A stretch of 64,000 bases of DNA from a virus (lineage: Duplodnaviria > Caudoviricetes). The position numbers and the translations under genes were made by a program. Where the stretch lies: the IMG/VR virus record IMGVR_UViG_3300023194_000121, positions 770 through 64,769 of that record. One strand, given 5' to 3'. Shown in pieces: positions 10,714 through 62,855 of the stretch (the stretch's first letter is position 1; the number at the start of each line of letters is the position of its first letter). The notes beneath the pieces were generated by a model. The model had not been told where the DNA came from and made no database searches. It saw only the letters and a program-made list of their open reading frames with translations.

Positions 10714-10746
10714 CGGCTTGTCCTCATTCGTTGATGAGGGGAAGTT

Positions 10747-10775
10747 ACATTACATGTCACGTAACTATCCGTCAA
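10747..10775 (-). promoter_or_regulatory. PL promoter: TTGACG-N17-TAATGT
   Basis: -35 at 10775-10770, -10 at 10752-10747, bracketed by operators. Confidence 0.8.
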
Positions 10776-10799
10776 GCACAAAATCACATGTCATGTTAC
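10749..10799. promoter_or_regulatory. OL operators: ATTACATGTCACGTAAC (10749-10765) and ATCACATGTCATGTTAC (10783-10799)
   Basis: 17-bp near-palindromes matching the three OR sites. Confidence 0.85.
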
Positions 10800-10830
10800 A
10801 ATCTTTGGACTCGACTCCTATTTCAAATGA

Positions 10831-10845
10831 GAACAGATTGAGAAC
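10831..10845 (+). promoter_or_regulatory. Alphaproteobacterial LexA (SOS) box GAAC-N7-GAAC
   Basis: GAACAGATTGAGAAC 20 nt upstream of ATG 10866; tandem GACTC-GACTC at 10808-10817. Confidence 0.8.
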
Positions 10846-10865
10846 ATAAGAGCGGAGTTGCGTTT

Positions 10866-11198
10866 ATGGATTTTTCAAACCCGATTGCATTTCGCAGCCT
10901 TCTTGAGCTGGAAAGACTTGATGCTCGATGCAGCGAATGCGGGAACTTGGCAAATATCAGCCGCGAGGAAGTTTTGAAAATTTACGAAGGAGGAATTCGC
11001 TCATTCGGTGCGCTCACCCCTCACGCATTCTGTCCGGTCTGCCGATCATACGGACATGTTGGATACCGCATGGTGCTGCGAGCGGTATGGGCGGACGGGT
11101 ATGCTGCCAATGACATAATTATCTGTCCGCCACGGCTTCATGAAAGATTGGAAAGAAAGCGCCGGCCTCCGCGCAGGATATTTTGCGAGGCCGTTTAA
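10866..11198 (+). CDS. Zn-ribbon (CxxC...CxxC) protein, LexA-boxed; candidate antirepressor
   Basis: C22xxC25 and C56xxC59; sits between OL and cI, convergent with cI. Confidence 0.7.
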   Translation: MDFSNPIAFRSLLELERLDARCSECGNLANISREEVLKIYEGGIRSFGALTPHAFCPVCRSYGHVGYRMVLRAVWADGYAANDIIICPPRLHERLERKRRPPRRIFCEAV

Positions 11199-11208
11199 TT
11201 GCCCGTTT

Positions 11209-11589
11209 CTATTTTTTTGCTGCTGATTTCTGAGCGCGCAATTTTGCGCTTTCCGAGGTCTTTGCAGCAGCCTCTTCCTGAGCTTTGAATGCTCCCACTA
11301 TTTCCTTGGCTTTAATTTGGTTCTCGGGCGATAGATCGAAAATAGACCAATCCTCGGCCTTAGTCGGATCTCGAAGCAGGAGGTCAGCTGGCCGGCACCT
11401 TAGGGCGCGGGCGATCGCTTCCAATGACTTCTGGGTATAAACCTGCTTTCCAGCTTCAATCCGCGAGATGCTCTGCTTAGTCGTGTTCGACAGTTCCGCG
11501 AGCTTTTCCTGTGTGATGCCACGAAACTCCCGCCATTCAGCGATGAAAGTTCTCTCGAGCGGTTCGTCAGATTGGATCTTGCCTGGCAT
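11209..11589 (-). CDS. cI: Prophage repressor, XRE HTH, no S24 autopeptidase domain
   Basis: IAEWREFRGITQEKLAELSNTTKQSISRIEAGK; divergent from cro; only 126 aa. Confidence 0.88.
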   Translation of the reverse strand: MPGKIQSDEPLERTFIAEWREFRGITQEKLAELSNTTKQSISRIEAGKQVYTQKSLEAIARALRCRPADLLLRDPTKAEDWSIFDLSPENQIKAKEIVGAFKAQEEAAAKTSESAKLRAQKSAAKK

Positions 11590-11624
11590 GGCCTGATGTT
11601 ACTTGGTATGTGACTAAATTTCAG
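11589..11624 (-). promoter_or_regulatory. PRM-like promoter giving leaderless cI mRNA: weak -35 CTGAAA, -10 TAACAT, ATG 6 nt downstream
   Basis: -10 at 11601-11596, -35 at 11624-11619 adjacent to the middle operator; no RBS before cI. Confidence 0.55.
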
Positions 11625-11674
11625 CCACATGTCATGTTACTTTTGTCTTGACGAGAGGTCACATGACACGTAAC
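11598..11674. promoter_or_regulatory. OR operators: GTTACTTGGTATGTGAC (11598-11614), GCCACATGTCATGTTAC (11624-11640), GTCACATGACACGTAAC (11658-11674)
   Basis: Three 17-bp near-palindromic repeats in the cI-cro intergenic region. Confidence 0.85.
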
Positions 11675-11676
11675 TT
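11648..11676 (+). promoter_or_regulatory. PR promoter: TTGACG-N17-TAACTT
   Basis: Same -35 hexamer and spacing as PL. Confidence 0.8.
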
Positions 11677-11684
11677 GTGTGCTC

Positions 11685-11915
11685 ATGACTCATCCTCTCA
11701 CGGCATATCGCACCGAGCACAACGTCTCGTTGCAAGATCTCGCTAAGGCGGCGGGCACAACGCGTCAAACAGTGTGGCGCATCGAAAAGGGCTGCCAAGA
11801 ACCGTCATTTGCAATTCTGAGGAAGCTCTCTGCCGCGACAAACGGAGCGGTATCGGTTGAAGCATTAGCTGCGGCGACGATTTCGTCTGTCTCAAACGCA
11901 TCGGAGGCTTCATGA
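11685..11915 (+). CDS. cro: Cro-like HTH regulator
   Basis: HPLTAYRTEHNVSLQDLAKAAGTTRQTVWRIEKG; divergent from cI. Confidence 0.85.
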   Translation: MTHPLTAYRTEHNVSLQDLAKAAGTTRQTVWRIEKGCQEPSFAILRKLSAATNGAVSVEALAAATISSVSNASEAS

Positions 11916-13518: not shown

Positions 13519-13980
13519 ATGACCTCTGATGCTACGCACGTGCGCACGCACGAGAACTCTATATCCTTCTTCGTCCCTGGCGATCCGGTGCCCTTCGCGA
13601 GAACTGGCGCCAATGGCGCTCAGCGTTTCACACCGAAGAAACAGCGCAACGGAATGGCCGTCGCTCGGCTCTGCGCCGAACGCGCCATGATCGAGGCTGG
13701 TCGGAAGCCGATAGAAGGTCCGGTGCAACTCACCGTGCGTGCAATCTTCGTGATCCCGGCGTCATGGCCAAAGAAGAAGCAGGCGGCGGCGCATTGGAAA
13801 TGCTCGAAGCCTGATCTCGATAATATCGTGAAGCTGATCAAAGACGCTGTGAAATCGGTCGTCTGGATCGACGACGCCCAGGTCTCGAAGCTTGATGCCG
13901 AGAAGATCTACACTCACGCGCTGCCTGTAGGGGTGAGCGTCACTGTCGAAGAACTGCAGACAGAAGGCCACATGCTATGA
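13519..13980 (+). CDS. rusA: RusA-family Holliday junction resolvase
   Basis: FFVPGDPVP..., KPDLDNIVKLIKDAV..VVWIDDAQV. Confidence 0.88.
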   Translation: MTSDATHVRTHENSISFFVPGDPVPFARTGANGAQRFTPKKQRNGMAVARLCAERAMIEAGRKPIEGPVQLTVRAIFVIPASWPKKKQAAAHWKCSKPDLDNIVKLIKDAVKSVVWIDDAQVSKLDAEKIYTHALPVGVSVTVEELQTEGHML

Positions 13981-14591
13981 GCGGCTGGGACGACACACGC
14001 GTCAATCTGCTTAAGAAGCTCTGGGCCGACGGTTTATCCGCTTCTCAGATCGCGTGCGAATTGGCGGGCGGCGTCACGCGCAATGCGGTCGTTGGCAAAT
14101 TGCATCGCCTCGGGCTCAGGATGGATGTCAAACCACGCAAGCCGGAGCCGAAACCTACCAAATCAAAGTTACCCTCGCTCGCTATTGCTCGCACGGCCCG
14201 GGACGACGGGGTGCGCATACAAGCCGCCAATTCCGGAGCGCAAAAAGAGCGTGTCGCAAGCCGCTCGGCGAGGGAGGACACTGCAGCGGGATTGGCGGAA
14301 GTCGTTACGGTGCCGGACGAGGCACAACATGAGCACGCGACGCTCGCCCCGTCCGGCCCGAACGTCGATATTCTTGGTCTGGCCTCGACGAACTGTCATT
14401 GGCCTCTGGGTGCCGTGCATGACCGGCCTCCATATCGGTTCTGCGGCGCGCCTACAGAGCCCGACAAGCCCTATTGCGAGCATCACGCCAAGATGGCGCG
14501 GTCTGGCGAGCAGGGCAGGCGCATGGCGCCGAAGTCTGATCCGGCAAAACGCGAACTGTTGCGGATCACGCTGGCGGAGGTCGCCGGATGA
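13977..14591 (+). CDS. gcrA: GcrA-family cell-cycle regulator homolog
   Basis: WDDTRVNLLKKLWADGLSASQIACELAGGVTRNAVVGKLHRLGL and C-terminal CHWPLG...FCG...PYCEHH. Confidence 0.92.
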   Translation: MSGWDDTRVNLLKKLWADGLSASQIACELAGGVTRNAVVGKLHRLGLRMDVKPRKPEPKPTKSKLPSLAIARTARDDGVRIQAANSGAQKERVASRSAREDTAAGLAEVVTVPDEAQHEHATLAPSGPNVDILGLASTNCHWPLGAVHDRPPYRFCGAPTEPDKPYCEHHAKMARSGEQGRRMAPKSDPAKRELLRITLAEVAG

Positions 14592-15160
14592 CGGTTGTCG
14601 CCTCCAATTTCGCTCGCAAGGCAAATGAGCTTTACGAGACAGAGCAATGGGCAACCGAGGCCTTGCTTCGCCATGTCGGTGTTGAAGGTAAGCGTGTCTG
14701 GGAGCCAGCAGCCGGGAACCACAAGATCGCCGACGTGCTTCGCGAGCGCGGCGCTGAGGTTATCACGTCTGACATTGTCGAATACGACCGTCATCATGAT
14801 GCTGGTTGCGATTTTCTCGCTCCGCGCTTCAAGCATTTGATCCCGCCGCATGATGACATCATCACGAACCCTCCGTACGGCAAGGGCAACCATGATGCGG
14901 TGAAATTCGCCCGGCTAGCGCTTGAGCGGTGTGACGGCTTTGTCGCGCTGCTTCTGACTGCGAAGTTCGATTTCGGCAAGACTCGCGCGGATCTGTTCCG
15001 CGACAACGCGCGCTTCTACGCGAAGATCGCGCTTGTTGACCGCATCCAATGGTTCCCCGGTGATACGTCAGGAACGGAAGACCACGCTTGGTATGTGTGG
15101 GGACCGCGCGCGCTCGCACCTTATTGTCCGAAGCTTGTTTGGGAGGGCCGCAAGCCATGA
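14588..15160 (+). CDS. Small amino-methyltransferase (N6-adenine DNA MTase-like)
   Basis: LYET..WATEALL, WEPAAG (SAM motif I), DFL, IITNPPY. Confidence 0.82.
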   Translation: MTVVASNFARKANELYETEQWATEALLRHVGVEGKRVWEPAAGNHKIADVLRERGAEVITSDIVEYDRHHDAGCDFLAPRFKHLIPPHDDIITNPPYGKGNHDAVKFARLALERCDGFVALLLTAKFDFGKTRADLFRDNARFYAKIALVDRIQWFPGDTSGTEDHAWYVWGPRALAPYCPKLVWEGRKP

Positions 15161-15573
15161 CCACACGCGAAATCCTTCCGAACCGCCGACAGCAGGAATC
15201 GTTCGACTTCGTTTATTCCGACCACTGCTTTACGGGAGCTGTTGGCCTGCATCCGGATGGCAGGATCGGCGAAGTCTTCCTCTCCTGCGAGAAGACAACA
15301 AGCCTAATGGAATCTCTCGGCCGCGACGGTGCCATCCTGATCTCGCTCGCGATCCAACACGGTTGCCCGATCGAGACGATGTGCGGTGCCATCACGCGCG
15401 GCGAGAATGATGCGCCGGCAACGGTGATTGGCGGACTTCTCGATCAACTGAGGGCCGTCGCGGAGGCGCGCAAGCCTGATGATCCGCCTGAAGAGCAGGG
15501 CGAGCCAGTTGATTCCGGCCCGGTACCGCAAGGCGGTTCGGGCGGTGAGAGTGCAGAGGTGGCAGCCGAATGA
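15157..15573 (+). CDS. Stand-alone TSCPD domain (class II ribonucleotide reductase C-terminal-like)
   Basis: LPNRR...DGRIGEVFL...RDGAILISLAIQHG. Confidence 0.7.
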   Translation: MTTREILPNRRQQESFDFVYSDHCFTGAVGLHPDGRIGEVFLSCEKTTSLMESLGRDGAILISLAIQHGCPIETMCGAITRGENDAPATVIGGLLDQLRAVAEARKPDDPPEEQGEPVDSGPVPQGGSGGESAEVAAE

Positions 15574-15773
15574 GCAAGCTCCCTCTCGATCGGCAGCGCC
15601 GCGACCTGAAAACAATCCGAAGCGTCATCGACGGCAGCGCGCCGACGCCGAAACGCGGCGAGCGCGACATCCTGCTCGACGGGATTGCTGCGATCGAAGA
15701 GACGCTCGCCTGGTGCGAGGAAAATCGCGAAACTGTCATCGCGTGGCAGCGGGAAAAGAGGGGCGCGAATTGA
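15570..15773 (+). CDS. Hypothetical protein
   Basis: Coupled ORF; IAAIEETLAWCEENRE. Confidence 0.55.
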   Translation: MSKLPLDRQRRDLKTIRSVIDGSAPTPKRGERDILLDGIAAIEETLAWCEENRETVIAWQREKRGAN

Positions 15774-17218
15774 GCGCGCTTCCCGTCCGTCGGCAGACCA
15801 TCGCCGAAATGACGCGTGGCCGCTCTGATGCGCTTGCTCTTTTTGGCCGGGCGCACCAGGCGCTCAAGGAGGCCTACGCGCTTCTGTCAGAGGCATGGCA
15901 CACGGTGCCCGGCGCGGGCCGGCAAGATACGTCATACAATCGCGGCGATAAGGAAAAGGCCGCGGCGCTTCTGCCTGTCGTGACAGTTCCGACGGAAGAC
16001 GACTTCCTTGCCTCCGCACGTTATCTGGTCGATCGCCAGTGCTGGGCGCATATCGTAAGCATGACAGATCTCGAACGTCTGATGGATAAAAAAGCGAAGG
16101 ATGAGTTTCGCCAGCAGCTCATGACCGACGCGCCAGAATTTACGACCGGCAACGTCACGGCGACGCTCGAACGGTTCATGCTCGATGCGGATACGATCTT
16201 CAAGCGTGGTCTTGCTGAAGCCTTCTCAAACCTCGACCGCCGCTTCCGGAGCCATGACGGATGGAAGATTGGCTCGCGCATCATCCTGAATCGCGCTTTT
16301 GACGAGCATGGTTCATGGAGTTTCTACAGCAACAAGCGCGACACGTTGCAGGACATCGAGCGCGTTTTCTTTTTGCTCGATAAAGATGAGAAAGGCGAAT
16401 CTAAGCCAGTCCCGCCGCAATATGCTGGCATCGTTGGCGCGATTGACGAGAGTCGCAACGGGCGCGGCTGGTGCGCAAAGCAGAGCGAGTCTGAAAGCGA
16501 TTACTTCATCGCGCGCGCCTTCTTGAACGGCAATTTGCATATCTGGTTCAAGCGTGACGACCTTCTCGAAAAGGTGAACCGCTTGCTCGGAGAATACTAC
16601 GGCGCTCCAATTCCGGAAGAGCGCGCGGCCGATGAGGACACTGGCCTGAATGATCCAAAGACGACGCTGGCGAAGAACTACGGGTTTTTCGCGTCTCCGG
16701 ACGAGGTTGCTGATCGGGTTATTGGGTACGCCAATCTCAGACAGACCGGTTCTAACGCTGAGCCCCTTCTTGTCCTCGAACCAAGTGCAGGAACAGGAAA
16801 CCTTGCACGCCGATGTGTCGAGCAAGGTTCAGTTGTTCGGTGCTGCGAAATTCATCCAGAACGCGCAGCTCAATTGCGGGCTCAGGAAATTTACGTCCTC
16901 ACGGCTGATTTCTTAACGGTCGGCCCATCTCGAACTTACGACCGTGTTGTAATGAATCCGCCGTTTGACCGCGAGCGCGACATCGACCATGTCATGCACG
17001 CGTTCAAGTTCCTAAAGCCAGGCGGCAGGCTTGTTTCTGTCATGTCGGCCGGAACGGAGTTTCGCGAGACGAAGAAATCAGCGGCGTTTCGCAAGTTCGT
17101 CGAGGAAAGAAACGGAACCTTTGTCGACCTACCGCCGCGGTCTTTCGCCAGCGTCGGTACCAACTGCAACACGGTCATTCTCATCATCAATGAGGATGGT
17201 AGGAGGTCGAGTTGGTGA
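15770..17218 (+). CDS. DUF4942-domain SAM-dependent DNA methyltransferase
   Basis: FLNGNLHIWFKRDDLLEKVNRLL (DUF4942), VLEPSAGTGNL, VVMNPPF; TTG start with TTGA overlap. Confidence 0.85.
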   Translation: MSALPVRRQTIAEMTRGRSDALALFGRAHQALKEAYALLSEAWHTVPGAGRQDTSYNRGDKEKAAALLPVVTVPTEDDFLASARYLVDRQCWAHIVSMTDLERLMDKKAKDEFRQQLMTDAPEFTTGNVTATLERFMLDADTIFKRGLAEAFSNLDRRFRSHDGWKIGSRIILNRAFDEHGSWSFYSNKRDTLQDIERVFFLLDKDEKGESKPVPPQYAGIVGAIDESRNGRGWCAKQSESESDYFIARAFLNGNLHIWFKRDDLLEKVNRLLGEYYGAPIPEERAADEDTGLNDPKTTLAKNYGFFASPDEVADRVIGYANLRQTGSNAEPLLVLEPSAGTGNLARRCVEQGSVVRCCEIHPERAAQLRAQEIYVLTADFLTVGPSRTYDRVVMNPPFDRERDIDHVMHAFKFLKPGGRLVSVMSAGTEFRETKKSAAFRKFVEERNGTFVDLPPRSFASVGTNCNTVILIINEDGRRSSW

Positions 17219-59073: not shown

Positions 59074-59361
59074 ATGCCTGATCGTGATGAATGTGTGGAG
59101 ACTAGCCTGCGACCGGTCTCTGCCAGTGACGCCTTAGAATATATAGGGGACATGACCCGCGAGCTTGCGCAGCTCGCCGAACCAACCAAACTTCCCATGC
59201 TCGTTTATCATCTACAGGCTGCTCGCGATATTTGCTTAAGGGCGCGAGAGCAGGAAATCATCGACAAGATGCAGCTTCTACATGACGAAGCCTTCGTGGT
59301 CTTGCCGAGCATATTGCATCAAGCGCTTTTCGACGATTCTCCGGACGATACTCAATCTTGA
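59074..59361 (+). CDS. Small helical Rhizobiales-type hypothetical protein (paralog 2)
   Basis: DALEYIGDMTRELAQLA...MLVYHLQAA. Confidence 0.55.
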   Translation: MPDRDECVETSLRPVSASDALEYIGDMTRELAQLAEPTKLPMLVYHLQAARDICLRAREQEIIDKMQLLHDEAFVVLPSILHQALFDDSPDDTQS

Positions 59362-60295
59362 GATTGCAGCCCGGCAAAGCTCGAATGCCGCAGCATCCCG
59401 TTTCGGTGAGATCGCGGAAGGCGACATTCGCCTTGAGCAGCGGCTGGCACCATCTGGCGCCCTTAATCCGCAAGCCAACGATCGGTGCCCTGCTAATTTC
59501 GATGCTGTCAATCGCGCGTTTGAGATCGGCCGCGACGCGTTCTGAAAAGCCGGTCCCGACGGAGCCGCGATAAGTCAGGCCGACGCCTTCCTCACTCGCA
59601 ACATGCAGCGCGCCAAGGCCGCCGTGCTTGCCGGGCTGATAGCCGATGATGGTGTAGGCCTGATGCTTGATGCATTTGACCTTGAACCAGTCCTGCACGC
59701 GGCCTGAGCGATACGGGCGGTCTCGCCGCTTCGAGACTATTCCCTCGAGCTCATGCTCGCAGGCTATGGCAAAGACGCGCGGACCAGGCGCATGAAGCTC
59801 TTCGCTGAAACGGATTGCATCCGGTGCGCCGGCGATGATTCCTTCGAGCACCATGCGCCGAGTATCGAGCTGCCAGTCCCTGATATCGAGCCCGTCGAAG
59901 AAGAGCAGATCGAAGACGAAAACGACCGCTTCATGCGCGCCGCTGGCCTTCAGCGCGGCCTGCAGAAGCCCGAAGCGGGAGCGGCCGCGATCGTCGAGCA
60001 CGACAGCTTCGCCATCGATAACGGCATTGCGCACGGGTAGCCCGGCGGCGGCCGTCGCGATCGCCGGAAAGCGCTTCGTGAAATTGAGGCCAGTGCTGGA
60101 ATAGATCGTGACCTTGCCGTCCTCGATCGCAATCGAGATGCGGTATCCGTCCCATTTGATCTCATGCTGCCATTCTGGACCCGTCGGCGGCTTGGTGACG
60201 GTCGTCGGCTTGCTCGGCGCAATCCAGCCCGGCAGCGGAGCGTTGAATTCAACGGTCGGGGTTAGAGGTACGTTTACGTTATTTGTTTTCGCCAT
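59352..60295 (-). pseudogene. ligD: LigD-type ATP-dependent DNA ligase domain with a 1-bp frameshift near the C-terminus
   Basis: EIKWDGYR (motif I), IDGEAVV, FVFDLLF, EGIVSKR..PYRSGR..DW.KVK; motif GMLRHSSFAGL lies in another frame after 59401-59403. Confidence 0.75.
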
Positions 60296-60335
60296 CACGA
60301 AGTGTGTGCAACGCAGTTTCCAAGGAACATGTAGC

Positions 60336-61158: not shown

Positions 61159-61602
61159 ATGCACGGAACATTCGCTGGGGAAGACGGGTCGAAAATAAAA
61201 AACCTCTTCGACCTCGATGAGCTTAGTCGTCTCATACATATTGTTCGCGTCGTGCAATTGGGTGCGCGGTACGCTACATGTGACGATGAATTACAAGATC
61301 TCGCTCATGGGGCAGATTATGTATGCATATATCTGTCGCATAAAATCGAAGAAATCGATAATGGCCAGTCGTCCGATGGCCCTTTAAACGCTAAACGGTT
61401 GCTCACTCTGCTCAAGACAATCGCTGATCTTCTTGTGTGCTTTGGTGCCTTGGTCGAGGGCGATGTTGTGGTCAGATACGCAGAGGCCGTCGACGGGCTT
61501 TTCCGCACGATAATTTCTCAAATGAAATCTCTTGAGCTTATTTTAAATCAGAATTCAGATGCGATCGAGGGGGAGATGACTGACGGATTTACCCTGGTCT
61601 AA
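61159..61602 (+). CDS. Hypothetical helical protein
   Basis: 147-aa ORF with GGAGG RBS. Confidence 0.55.
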   Translation: MHGTFAGEDGSKIKNLFDLDELSRLIHIVRVVQLGARYATCDDELQDLAHGADYVCIYLSHKIEEIDNGQSSDGPLNAKRLLTLLKTIADLLVCFGALVEGDVVVRYAEAVDGLFRTIISQMKSLELILNQNSDAIEGEMTDGFTLV

Positions 61603-61870
61603 CTGTCGAGGCGACGATGGTTATGACCTCCAACCAATTGTCGGTAGAGAGTAGATCTTTGTAATCGTCGAGGACCGTAAAGCGAGAAATCATGCCGCCA
61701 AATTCGCGATCAGCGTGGTCCGGATAATCGATATAAACCGTGAGATTGTTAGGTGTGAGCCAACACGGACAAGTGTCATTGTGCCAACTGATATCTCGCC
61801 AGTCCCTCGGAATGGATGGAATTGTGCCAGCGGGATAGTCCGGAAATTCAGATTCATAATCTAATTTCAT
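61589..61870 (-). CDS. Hypothetical phage protein
   Basis: WRDISWHNDTCPCW...TVYIDYPD..DRE; start placed at ATG 61870. Confidence 0.55.
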   Translation of the reverse strand: MKLDYESEFPDYPAGTIPSIPRDWRDISWHNDTCPCWLTPNNLTVYIDYPDHADREFGGMISRFTVLDDYKDLLSTDNWLEVITIVASTVRPG

Positions 61871-62014
61871 GTCATTTAACCTTACGCCGCGCGCGATGAT
61901 GCTCGGATCATCATCACCTTCGCCGGTCTTGTTCAACCGCTTTGAGACCGCTGCGATTAGCCTGCATACGGGCCTTCTCTTATCCCCGATATCCACGCCT
62001 CGCATCGGCTATCC

Positions 62015-62398
62015 TCAGCGCTTTTGATCATCCTTCGACCGTTCCGCGATCGTCCGGATTCCCTGCCTCAAGGTAAGATGAGCACGGGGACGCTGGATGC
62101 AGGCTTCATCAAAGGCCGCACGGGCAATAATCCCATGACTTGATCGGGCCAAGACTTCTTCAATCCCGCCTTTGTCATTCCAGACTTCGACCTGATAGCC
62201 TCCCCATTCATCGCGGGGGCCATCCACGAGATCGGCATAAAGTCGCAGAGCTTGGACGATCATCCGTGTGCTTTGCTCGGTTAGAATGATGCGCTTGCCC
62301 GGCGGATGAGCTTCAAGGCGCGCGGCGAGATATCTGACGTCATTCATCGTCATGGTCTTCAAAGAGACGAAGCGTTGCACATACTGGCCTTTGGCCAT
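62015..62398 (-). CDS. Conserved small Rhizobiales protein, second gene of a LexA-boxed operon
   Basis: YQVEVWNDKGGIEEVLA...IARAAFDEA...RP...LTLRQGIRTIA; 1-nt overlap with Zn-ribbon gene. Confidence 0.7.
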   Translation of the reverse strand: MAKGQYVQRFVSLKTMTMNDVRYLAARLEAHPPGKRIILTEQSTRMIVQALRLYADLVDGPRDEWGGYQVEVWNDKGGIEEVLARSSHGIIARAAFDEACIQRPRAHLTLRQGIRTIAERSKDDQKR

Positions 62399-62688
62399 CA
62401 GAATCGCCCGTCGGCCATGATCCGATCGCCCTGGACATAGATGCGGCGTTCGAGCGGATACGGGTCGAGCAGCGTCTCATAGCCGATCATGACGTCGGTC
62501 TCTGTCCGGCGACCGCAATCCAGACATTGCAGGCGCCGAAGTGTGGAGGTCAGCCGCTCGGACTGCGGGCGGCGGTCCAGAAAGATGCGGCCGTTACGGC
62601 GGCAGATCAGGCATGTCACGAGCAGATATTGCCAGCCGTTTTCCGTGGCCTCGGCCACCGTCTGTGGAGGCTCATTGAGGGATCGCAT
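62398..62688 (-). CDS. Zn-ribbon (CxxC...CxxC) protein, LexA-boxed
   Basis: C26xxC29 and C55xxC58. Confidence 0.7.
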   Translation of the reverse strand: MRSLNEPPQTVAEATENGWQYLLVTCLICRRNGRIFLDRRPQSERLTSTLRRLQCLDCGRRTETDVMIGYETLLDPYPLERRIYVQGDRIMADGRF

Positions 62689-62701
62689 AGTCGCGCTCTT
62701 T

Positions 62702-62716
62702 GTTCCGACTTTGTTC
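62702..62716 (-). promoter_or_regulatory. Alphaproteobacterial LexA box (GTTC-N7-GTTC on + strand)
   Basis: GTTCCGACTTTGTTC 13 nt upstream of ATG 62688; tandem GAGTC-GAATC at 62738-62747. Confidence 0.8.
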
Positions 62717-62855
62717 TTATGCCGGAACGCGGATCGAGAGTCGAATCTGGATTGGAAAAGTGGGACACTCCGCTAATGGTGCCCTCTGGACACGACTGGT
62801 TTTAAAGGAGTAGAGAAAGTGTCCAACAGCGTTATTTCAGGCTCTTTATCTAGAA

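What the first reader, a model, noticed from the sequence alone, without database searches (positions are those of the whole stretch)
10808..11589. SOS-inducible Zn-ribbon gene inside the immunity region: candidate new antirepressor for a non-cleavable repressor
Seen: CI is only 126 aa with no LexA-like peptidase domain, so it cannot self-cleave via RecA. Between OL and cI (the lambda rexAB slot) is a 110-aa CxxC-N30-CxxC protein with a perfect alphaproteobacterial LexA box (GAAC-AGATTGA-GAAC, 10831-10845) 20 nt upstream of its ATG. Established: phages with non-cleavable repressors (coliphage 186 Tum, N15 AntC, Gifsy/Fels-2 antirepressors) are induced by LexA-controlled antirepressors. Inference: this Zn-ribbon protein is the induction trigger and may be an unrecognised antirepressor class. 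Its convergent transcript ends 10 bp from the cI 3' end with no obvious terminator, so antisense interference may add to the effect.
Basis: partly seen in the sequence, partly recalled or inferred. Interest (0 to 1): 0.82.

Follow-up and report, generated by a model that had tools for sequence, protein, structure and literature searches.

The report
SOS-gated zinc protein gene beside repressor
A prophage of an alphaproteobacterium carries, tail-to-tail with its repressor gene, a small zinc-binding protein gene that is very probably switched on by DNA damage; its relatives are ordinary damage-response genes on bacterial chromosomes, so it looks more like damage-response cargo than the proposed new trigger that wakes the prophage.

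Summary
A 110-aa CxxC-N30-CxxC ORF (10866-11198) lies between OL and a 126-aa HTH-only cI, with GAAC-N7-GAAC at 10831-10845, 20 nt before its ATG. The gene is real: six distant homologs exist, the best at E 8.5e-20.

The box is the best LexA-type site in the window (18.6 bits; reached in 10 of 400 random windows). It belongs to a conserved cassette, GGACTCGACTCC plus a LexA box, found in 31 other viral contigs. SOS control is therefore well supported.

The antirepressor reading is not supported by the comparisons:
- A cassette-driven phage protein (L270) links ORF110's family to an unnamed chromosomal family (hhalign about 95% both ways).
- That family has a perfect LexA box in 17 of 23 alphaproteobacterial loci, among non-phage neighbours.
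- The nearest cI relatives have no such gene beside them.
- Analogous cassette-driven Cys4 genes sit beside S24-type repressors.
- A hairpin (-16 kcal/mol) between the convergent genes argues against free antisense read-through.

Best reading (0.45): a phage-borne member of an SOS-regulon zinc-protein superfamily. The antirepressor role stays possible (about 0.22), because the provirus shows no other known SOS sensor. This scan has noted LexA-boxed zinc-ribbon genes in other alphaproteobacterial prophages before.

The parts
10807..10818 (+). Conserved promoter element GGACTCGACTCC, holding two adjacent GANTC (CcrM-type) sites
   Evidence: It is identical in L200. It recurs with a LexA box 5-30 nt downstream in 31 viral contigs. 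It is one of only two GANTCGANTC sites in the window.
10831..10845 (+). LexA (SOS) box GAAC-AGATTGA-GAAC, with the flanks GA...AT
   Evidence: It is the best PWM site in the window at 18.6 bits, a score reached in 10 of 400 random windows. In sampled alphaproteobacteria, 27 of 29 lexA genes carry the same direct repeat with A at -1 and +15.
10866..11198 (+). ORF110, a small Cys4 zinc-binding protein with a basic C-terminal tail
   Evidence: It has six homologs, best E 8.5e-20, conserved from Met1. The AF2 model scores pLDDT about 85 for residues 10-80. It is linked to the chromosomal SOS family through L270.
11163..11193 (.). GC-rich hairpin at the 3' end of ORF110, a plausible bidirectional terminator between ORF110 and cI
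   Evidence: RNA folding gives -16.2 kcal/mol on the plus strand and -15.8 on the minus strand. A U-rich stretch follows on both strands.
11209..11589 (-). cI-type repressor, 126 aa, HTH only
   Evidence: Pfam HTH_3 at 6.6e-12 with no peptidase domain. No S24 domain is found in six frames of the record.
10744..10799 (.). OL: two operators (10752-65 and 10786-99) overlapping the leftward promoter TTGACG-17-TAATGT
   Evidence: Repeat family D1 with 34-bp spacing, mirrored at OR. The promoter was read from the sequence.
11598..11678 (.). OR: operators (11627-40 and 11661-74, with a weak third at 11598-611) and the rightward promoter TTGACG-17-TAACTT
   Evidence: for the operators. The promoter was read from the sequence.
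11679..11915 (+). Cro-like HTH protein
   Evidence: Pfam HTH_3 at 6.9e-10.
62398..62747 (-). Second unit of the same design: GATTCGACTC (62747-38), LexA box (62716-02), and a 96-aa Cys4 ORF (62688-62398) that heads a three-gene operon
   Evidence: Its box is the second-best PWM site at 15.7 bits. It holds the only other GANTCGANTC in the window. The ORFs are listed. No family or homolog was found.

Best explanation
ORF110 is a real gene repressed by host LexA. After DNA damage, RecA-stimulated LexA cleavage should free the operator at 10831-10845, which lies in the promoter cassette GGACTCGACTCC...GAAC-N7-GAAC, and the 110-aa protein is then made. This regulatory step is inferred from strong sequence evidence. 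It was not measured.

The protein is a phage-borne, divergent member of an unnamed superfamily of roughly 80-110-aa Cys4 proteins. On alphaproteobacterial chromosomes these are stand-alone members of the LexA regulon.

Its most likely role is therefore that of its chromosomal relatives: a small zinc-stabilised binding protein acting on a conserved host target during the SOS response. On this reading the phage carries it as SOS-switched cargo in the variable slot behind cI, and it is not the factor that inactivates cI. The host target is unknown.
For: Gene reality:
- Homologs reach E 8.5e-20 and are conserved from the first Met.

LexA control:
- The box is the top-scoring site in the window.
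- Its flanks match real lexA and recA boxes.
- The cassette is conserved in 31 viral contigs, where about 5 chance matches would be expected from the pattern's information content (my estimate).

Superfamily membership:
- L270, a cassette-driven 92-aa phage protein, matches the ORF110 family at 95.5% (E 1.5e-8) and the chromosomal family at 95.4% (E 2e-8).
- The direct comparison between the two families gives 51%, E 1.5e-4, with both Cys pairs and the Trp in register.

The chromosomal family:
- It was hit in 22 of the other 400 alphaproteobacterial genomes sampled.
- 17 of 23 loci have a perfect LexA box; in 15 of the 17 the next in-frame start codon lies 5-38 nt downstream.
- Its neighbours are a CoA-transferase, DUF2794 (twice) and PAS_5, not phage genes.
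- It was not found in IMG/VR.

The slot is variable:
- cI relatives at 48%, 44% and 34% identity carry other genes behind cI and no LexA box.
Against: - The provirus has no other recognisable SOS sensor: no S24, M78/ImmA, ANT or DinI domain. If it is SOS-inducible, one of its two LexA-boxed units should be the trigger.
- The same cassette drives ImmA-type proteases in 10 other viruses, which suggests it often feeds the phage switch.
- ORF110's family has a conserved Pro-rich, basic C-terminal tail that the chromosomal family lacks. This is compatible with a new function.
- The function of the chromosomal family is itself unknown.
Confidence: 0.45

Rival explanations
1. ORF110 is the SOS-induced antirepressor. 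It binds the non-cleavable 126-aa CI and so induces the prophage. It would be a host SOS zinc protein recruited to this new job.
For: - It has a strong LexA box.
- cI lacks a peptidase domain, and no S24, M78, ANT or DinI domain is found anywhere in the record.
- It lies inside the immunity region, tail-to-tail with cI.
- The tail-to-tail design 'SOS cassette, small gene, then repressor' recurs in L200, L253 and L259 with unrelated small proteins.
- The same cassette drives ImmA-type anti-repressor proteases elsewhere.
- The family has its own specific C-terminal tail.
- From established knowledge of coliphage 186, not tested here: Tum carries a DinI-like part, which is a precedent for recruiting an SOS protein as an antirepressor.
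Against: - It shows no similarity to any known antirepressor or solved fold.
- Its homologs are chromosomal SOS genes, and L270 lies away from any HTH gene.
- Analogous genes lie beside S24-type repressors.
- The gene is not co-inherited with this cI lineage.
- A second LexA-boxed operon in the same provirus is an equally good candidate.
Confidence: 0.22
2. What matters is the SOS promoter itself. Once derepressed, transcription from it runs convergently into cI and lowers cI expression by transcriptional interference or antisense RNA. The encoded protein would be secondary.
For: - The convergent geometry with only a 10-nt gap.
- The arrangement 'cassette pointing at the 3' end of an HTH repressor gene' recurs in L200, L253 and L259 although the small proteins differ.
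Against: - A -16 kcal/mol hairpin with a U-rich tail sits exactly between the genes.
- The ORF is conserved as a protein.
- Most cassettes (the M78, 411-aa and L270 classes) do not face a repressor gene.
Confidence: 0.08
3. ORF110 is a phage regulator of another kind, for example a zinc-finger transcription factor or a modulator of RecA or LexA. It would act early after damage but not on CI.
For: - It is small, Cys4, and has a basic tail.
- The phage encodes its own GcrA homolog and methyltransferases, and the promoter carries tandem GANTC sites.
Against: - It matches no DNA-binding zinc-finger family, and no structural match was found.
- Chromosomal relatives argue for a host-directed role.
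Confidence: 0.12
4. The box is a chance match and the gene is not under LexA control.
For: - The bare pattern GAAC-N7-GAAC occurs as often as chance predicts: 2 observed against 1.97 expected.
- The spacer AGATTGA is far from the lexA-type spacer cAAAcTA.
Against: - The PWM rank and the shuffles.
- Both of the top two sites lie 13-20 nt before Cys4 ORFs.
- The cassette is conserved across viruses.
- Relatives carry LexA boxes in 17 of 23 loci.
Confidence: 0.04

Closest known systems
LexA-repressed antirepressors of phages with non-cleavable repressors (coliphage 186 Tum, N15 AntC, Gifsy GfoA/GfhA; PMC3121763, and reviewed in PMC9437464)
   Same: A host LexA operator sits on the promoter of a small phage gene, in a prophage whose repressor has no S24 self-cleavage domain.
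   Different: - There is no sequence or fold similarity, and no ANT or DinI domain in the record.
- Its relatives are chromosomal SOS genes.
- Action on CI is untested.
Alphaproteobacterial SOS box GTTC-N7-GTTC / GAAC-N7-GAAC (Caulobacter LexA regulon; 10.1101/2025.01.26.634973)
   Same: A direct repeat with 7-nt spacing, with flanks like those before lexA and recA in the sampled alphaproteobacteria.
   Different: - The spacer composition differs from the lexA-type spacer.
- The host of this provirus, and so its own LexA, is not at hand.
Unnamed chromosomal family of ~90-aa Cys4 proteins (motifs FCWCNRCGH ... RCSGCGSKDVATRPxWP), not in Pfam or NCBIfam
   Same: - It shares the two CxxC pairs, about 30 residues apart, and the Trp after the second pair.
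- It has a LexA box just upstream.
- It is linked by profile comparison through L270.
   Different: - ORF110's family has its own N-terminal NPxAFRSLLEL motif and a Pro-rich, basic tail.
- ORF110's box is in the opposite orientation.
- The ORF110 family is phage-borne and very rare, with six singletons among about 15 billion proteins.
ImmA/IrrE (Peptidase_M78) plus HTH repressor modules
   Same: In 10 other viral contigs the same promoter-operator cassette drives an M78-type protease followed by a short HTH protein. The cassette is therefore an SOS input used by these phages.
   Different: ORF110 has no HExxH motif and no protease fold. This provirus has no M78 domain.
ZnR1/ZnR2 zinc-chelating proteins of SRAP-Ku-DinB neighbourhoods (Aravind, Anand and Iyer 2013, PMC3765255)
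   Same: Small, uncharacterised Zn-chelating proteins tied to SOS and repair genes in alphaproteobacteria.
   Different: The relationship was not tested. The 30 SRAP loci sampled here had no such neighbour, and the published alignments were not usable as a query.
The accessory ('moron') slot next to the repressor gene, such as lambda rexAB
   Same: The position is the same, and the content varies among related phages.
   Different: rexAB is co-transcribed with cI in the lysogen. ORF110 is convergent to cI and LexA-repressed.

Membership tests
LexA-controlled phage antirepressor (Tum/AntC/GfoA kind) | Host LexA operator on the gene's promoter | tested here: met
   It is the best PWM site in the window, 20 nt before the ATG, in a conserved cassette.
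LexA-controlled phage antirepressor (Tum/AntC/GfoA kind) | The cognate repressor lacks a self-cleavage domain | tested here: met
   cI is 126 aa and matches HTH_3 only. No S24 domain is found in six frames.
LexA-controlled phage antirepressor (Tum/AntC/GfoA kind) | Homology to a known antirepressor family (ANT, or the DinI-like part of Tum) | tested here: not met
   No match in Pfam or PHROGs. No ANT or DinI domain in the record.
LexA-controlled phage antirepressor (Tum/AntC/GfoA kind) | Relatives are confined to immunity regions, beside non-cleavable repressors | tested here: not met
   - The chromosomal relatives have non-phage neighbours.
- L270 has no nearby HTH gene.
- In L200 and L253 the analogous genes lie beside S24-type repressors.
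- The context of the six closest homologs could not be fetched.
LexA-controlled phage antirepressor (Tum/AntC/GfoA kind) | Binds and inactivates the repressor, and is needed for SOS induction | not testable with these tools
   This needs binding and genetic assays. No complex prediction tool was available.
Alphaproteobacterial LexA regulon | GAAC-N7-GAAC direct repeat with typical flanks, close to the promoter or start codon | tested here: met
Alphaproteobacterial LexA regulon | LexA binding and damage-dependent induction | not testable with these tools
   This needs an EMSA and expression data. The host genome is not held.
Unnamed LexA-regulated Cys4 superfamily (chromosomal FCWCNRCGH family and phage relatives) | Profile-level homology | tested here: met
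   The direct comparison gives 51%, E 1.5e-4. Through L270 it gives 95.5% and 95.4%.
Unnamed LexA-regulated Cys4 superfamily (chromosomal FCWCNRCGH family and phage relatives) | Two CxxC pairs about 30 residues apart, an aromatic residue after the second pair, and a LexA box upstream | tested here: met
Zn-ribbon / treble-clef fold | Structural match to a solved zinc-finger fold | tested here: inconclusive
   In the AF2 model C22/C25 lie in the turn between two strands and C56/C59 at the start of a helix. No match was found in PDB or BFVD; the best VIA Z-score was 3.6.
ZnR1/ZnR2 (PMC3765255) | Sequence match to the published ZnR alignments, or an SRAP/Ku neighbourhood | not tested
   No usable query sequence was available. 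The sampled SRAP loci lacked such genes.

The most novel reading that the evidence does not exclude
ORF110's rare family is a host SOS zinc protein that phages have recruited as a new class of antirepressor. It would be made from a portable LexA-gated promoter cassette and would bind the short HTH repressor, perhaps through the family-specific basic tail. This would be the first induction mechanism defined for a temperate phage of alphaproteobacteria, so far as the literature I could search shows.
Probability: 0.22. Interest if true: 0.75.

Novelty: new variant of a known kind. Interest (0 to 1): 0.45.

Why it matters
I found no paper that defines how a temperate phage of alphaproteobacteria senses DNA damage.

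This locus shows a portable SOS promoter-operator cassette that these phages place in front of very different genes: ImmA-type proteases, a 411-aa protein, and small zinc proteins.

It also ties the phage genes to an unnamed family of small zinc proteins that appears to be a widespread, undescribed member of the alphaproteobacterial LexA regulon.

Finding what this family does would add a new SOS effector. Testing ORF110 against its cI would show whether phages have turned that effector into an induction switch.

Tried and rejected
**Close homologs with genomic context**
- The word-based protein search found none. The profile version returned only the four known members.
The contigs of the six homologs, all from Logan or ENA, could therefore not be read.
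- A degenerate-motif DNA scan gave only three spurious hits in JGI metagenomes and none in IMG/VR.

**Similar DNA or protein in phage records**
- None.

**Fold assignment**
- Foldseek against PDB and BFVD, and VIA-align wide, gave nothing above noise.

**The ZnR1/ZnR2 lead**
- The 30 SRAP loci sampled had no adjacent Cys4 gene or LexA box.

**Homology between ORF110, ORF96 and the L200 protein**
- Not detectable.

**Promoter and terminator scans**
- No sigma-70 consensus promoter was found near the box, so the -35 and -10 elements remain unassigned.

**Other points**
- GC3 was not informative about coding.
- The ImmA-like proteases gave no PDB sequence hit. They were confirmed with Pfam M78 instead.
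- Genomes flagged as unpublished (G043, G243) were left out of the box counts.

Full report
**What is there**

The window is an IMG/VR provirus record. Its integrase lies at the far left. A GcrA homolog places the host among the Alphaproteobacteria.

The region 7.7-12 kb is a lambda-like switch:
- RecT, a YqaJ exonuclease and a 136-aa ORF run leftward.
- Two operators of the type ACATGTCAYGTWAC, 34 bp apart, lie at OL (10752-65, 10786-99). A mirrored pair lies at OR (11627-40, 11661-74).
- The repressor is a 126-aa HTH_3 protein at 11209-11589 on the minus strand.
- An HTH cro runs rightward from 11679.
- Read from the sequence, PL is TTGACG-17-TAATGT and PR is TTGACG-17-TAACTT. Each overlaps its proximal operator.

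Between OL and cI lies ORF110 (10866-11198, plus strand). It has CxxC-N30-CxxC, a GGAG 8 nt before the ATG, and GAAC-AGATTGA-GAAC at 10831-10845, 20 nt before the ATG.

**Is the gene real?**

The exact protein is absent from the 15-billion-protein collection, so gene callers missed it. A word-based search also found nothing.

An exhaustive phmmer search found six relatives, with E-values from 8.5e-20 to 7e-4. They are conserved from the first Met through both Cys pairs to a Trp, and most of them end in a Pro-rich linker and a basic tail. One relative, P0003, is a tandem duplication of the module. All six are singletons from Logan or ENA assemblies. The gene is therefore real and the family is very rare.

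AlphaFold2 gives pLDDT of about 85 for residues 10-80. C22/C25 lie in the turn between two strands and C56/C59 at the start of a helix. No solved or viral predicted structure matches.

**Is the LexA box real?**

The bare pattern occurs twice in the window, against 1.97 expected by chance. I therefore collected real boxes.
- 27 of 29 lexA genes in sampled alphaproteobacteria carry the repeat upstream. So do 11 of 30 recA genes.
- These boxes have A at -1 and +15 and an A-rich spacer.

A PWM built from these 39 sites ranks the ORF110 box first in the window at 18.6 bits. The only other perfect box (62702-62716, minus strand) ranks second at 15.7 bits. Sites of at least 18.6 bits appeared in 10 of 400 random windows. 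Two sites of at least 15.7 bits appeared in 4 of 400.

Both boxes lie 13-20 nt before a small Cys4 ORF. Each is preceded by one of the only two GANTCGANTC sites in the window.

**A portable SOS cassette**

A scan of IMG/VR for the box plus its downstream AAGAGCG found L200. L200 also shares the 13-mer GGACTCGACTCCT and ATGAGAACAG with the ORF110 promoter.

A second scan, for GGACTCGACTCC followed by a LexA box within 5-30 nt, found 31 contigs. From the pattern's information content I would expect about five chance matches. The first gene downstream of the cassette falls into these classes:

| First gene after the cassette | Contigs |
|---|---|
| HExxH protein followed by a short HTH protein | 10 |
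| 411-aa protein | 8 |
| Small Cys4 protein of diverse sequence | 5, plus this window |
| Other, or none | 8 |

Pfam Peptidase_M78 (the ImmA/IrrE family) matched in 5 of 5 records tested from the first class.

The cassette is thus a general SOS promoter-operator unit of alphaproteobacterial phages. This strongly supports LexA control of ORF110.

**What the relatives say about function**

A profile of the ORF110 family hit one weak relative in 401 alphaproteobacterial genomes. That gene has GTTC-N7-GTTC 18 nt before its ATG, in a chromosomal setting with MarR, Vsr and a restriction-enzyme-like gene.

Searching with that protein found 23 loci in 23 of 401 genomes, the query's own locus among them. 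Seventeen have a perfect LexA box upstream, and in 15 of these the next in-frame start codon lies 5-38 nt downstream. Most belong to a tight family with the motifs FCWCNRCGH and RCSGCGSKDVATRPxWP. This family:
- is absent from Pfam and NCBIfam;
- has ordinary chromosomal neighbours: a CoA-transferase, DUF2794 twice, and PAS_5;
- was not found in IMG/VR.

The direct profile-profile comparison between the two families is only suggestive: 51%, E 1.5e-4, with both Cys pairs and the Trp in register. The cassette-driven 92-aa protein of L270 bridges them. It matches the ORF110 family at 95.5% (E 1.5e-8) and the chromosomal family at 95.4% (E 2e-8).

ORF110 is therefore a divergent, phage-borne member of a superfamily whose chromosomal members are stand-alone SOS genes.

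**Tests of the antirepressor idea**

In favour:
- cI has no peptidase domain.
- The whole record shows no S24, M78, ANT or DinI domain in any frame.
- The two LexA-boxed units are therefore the only visible SOS inputs.
- The design 'SOS cassette, small gene, tail-to-tail with an HTH repressor' recurs in L200, L253 and L259.

Against:
- The closest cI relatives have other genes behind cI and no Cys4 gene or LexA box there. These are a 46.7-kb prophage in G391 (48% identity), L160 (44%), and L161/L162 (34%).
- In L200 the adjacent repressor is 265 aa. It has an S24-like C-terminal part (22.7 bits, just under the cut-off) and a GDSM motif.
- The record that holds L253 has a weak S24 match in a frame the size of the adjacent 284-aa HTH protein.
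- L270 has no HTH gene within about 3 kb, and its provirus encodes an S24 protein.
- The chromosomal relatives cannot be phage antirepressors.

**The antisense idea**

A hairpin at 11163-11193 (-16.2 kcal/mol) overlaps the end of ORF110. It is followed by GUUUAAUU on the plus strand and by a U-rich stretch on the minus strand. It is a plausible bidirectional terminator, so 'no obvious terminator' is not right. Free read-through into cI is less likely, though not excluded.

**Verdict**

| Reading | Confidence |
|---|---|
| ORF110 is under SOS (LexA) control | about 0.85 |
| SOS-switched cargo of the host-type zinc-protein family (best reading) | 0.45 |
| Another kind of phage regulator | 0.12 |
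| Promoter-driven interference with cI | 0.08 |
| Chance box, no LexA control | 0.04 |

The literature searched describes LexA-controlled antirepressors as a known kind (PMC3121763, PMC9437464). I found no zinc-binding antirepressor and no paper on this protein family.

This scan has repeatedly noted LexA-boxed zinc-ribbon genes in other alphaproteobacterial prophages, with verdicts split between 'trigger' and 'cargo'. My data favour cargo for this one.

Noticed in passing
window 61589-62747 (-): A second LexA-boxed unit has the same design: tandem GANTC sites, GAAC-N7-GAAC, then AAAGAGCG. It drives a 96-aa Cys4 ORF and two further ORFs of 127 and 138 aa with no family match. It is an equally good candidate for the SOS trigger. 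An ATP-dependent DNA ligase gene lies nearby at 59258-60298.
   Followed up: partly
L249, L260, L262, L265, L267, L268, L269, L272, L273, L275 (IMG/VR loci): In ten viral contigs the same cassette, GGACTCGACTCC plus a LexA box, drives a Peptidase_M78 (ImmA/IrrE-like, HExxH) gene. A ~95-aa HTH gene follows directly on the same strand. This looks like a LexA-gated protease-repressor module in alphaproteobacterial phages.
   Followed up: partly
L250, L255, L256, L258, L263, L264, L274, L276: In eight viral contigs the cassette drives a conserved 411-aa protein of unknown function that begins MGSDLKKFVNPKF.
   Followed up: no
L137-L159 (alphaproteobacterial genomes): An unnamed chromosomal family of ~90-aa Cys4 proteins (motifs FCWCNRCGH ... 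ATRPxWP) has a perfect GTTC-N7-GTTC box in 17 of 23 loci. It is often next to a DUF2794 gene. It appears to be an undescribed, widespread member of the LexA regulon.
   Followed up: partly
window 13977-17218: The phage encodes a GcrA homolog (13977-14591) and at least two DNA methyltransferase-like genes (14588-15160 and 15479-17218). Both LexA-boxed promoters carry tandem GANTC sites, so methylation- or GcrA-dependent control of them is possible.
   Followed up: no
window 11643-11690: The -10 element of PR ends about 8 nt before the cro ATG at 11685, so the cro mRNA may be leaderless or nearly so.
   Followed up: no
L069-L072 (G391:C1:1012023 and 1058770): The prophage that holds the closest cI relative is bounded by direct repeats about 46.7 kb apart, which look like a tRNA-type att site. 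It contains no perfect LexA box, and a 95-aa membrane protein sits in the slot behind cI.
   Followed up: partly
L056 near 1851 and L064 near 1328: Two unrelated genomes share the identical LexA box GTTCATGACTTGTTC about 150-170 nt upstream of HTH proteins of 220-260 aa. This may be a conserved SOS-controlled regulator.
   Followed up: no
protein P0003: One relative of ORF110 is a 189-aa tandem duplication of the Cys4 module. This hints that the module may work as a dimer.
   Followed up: no
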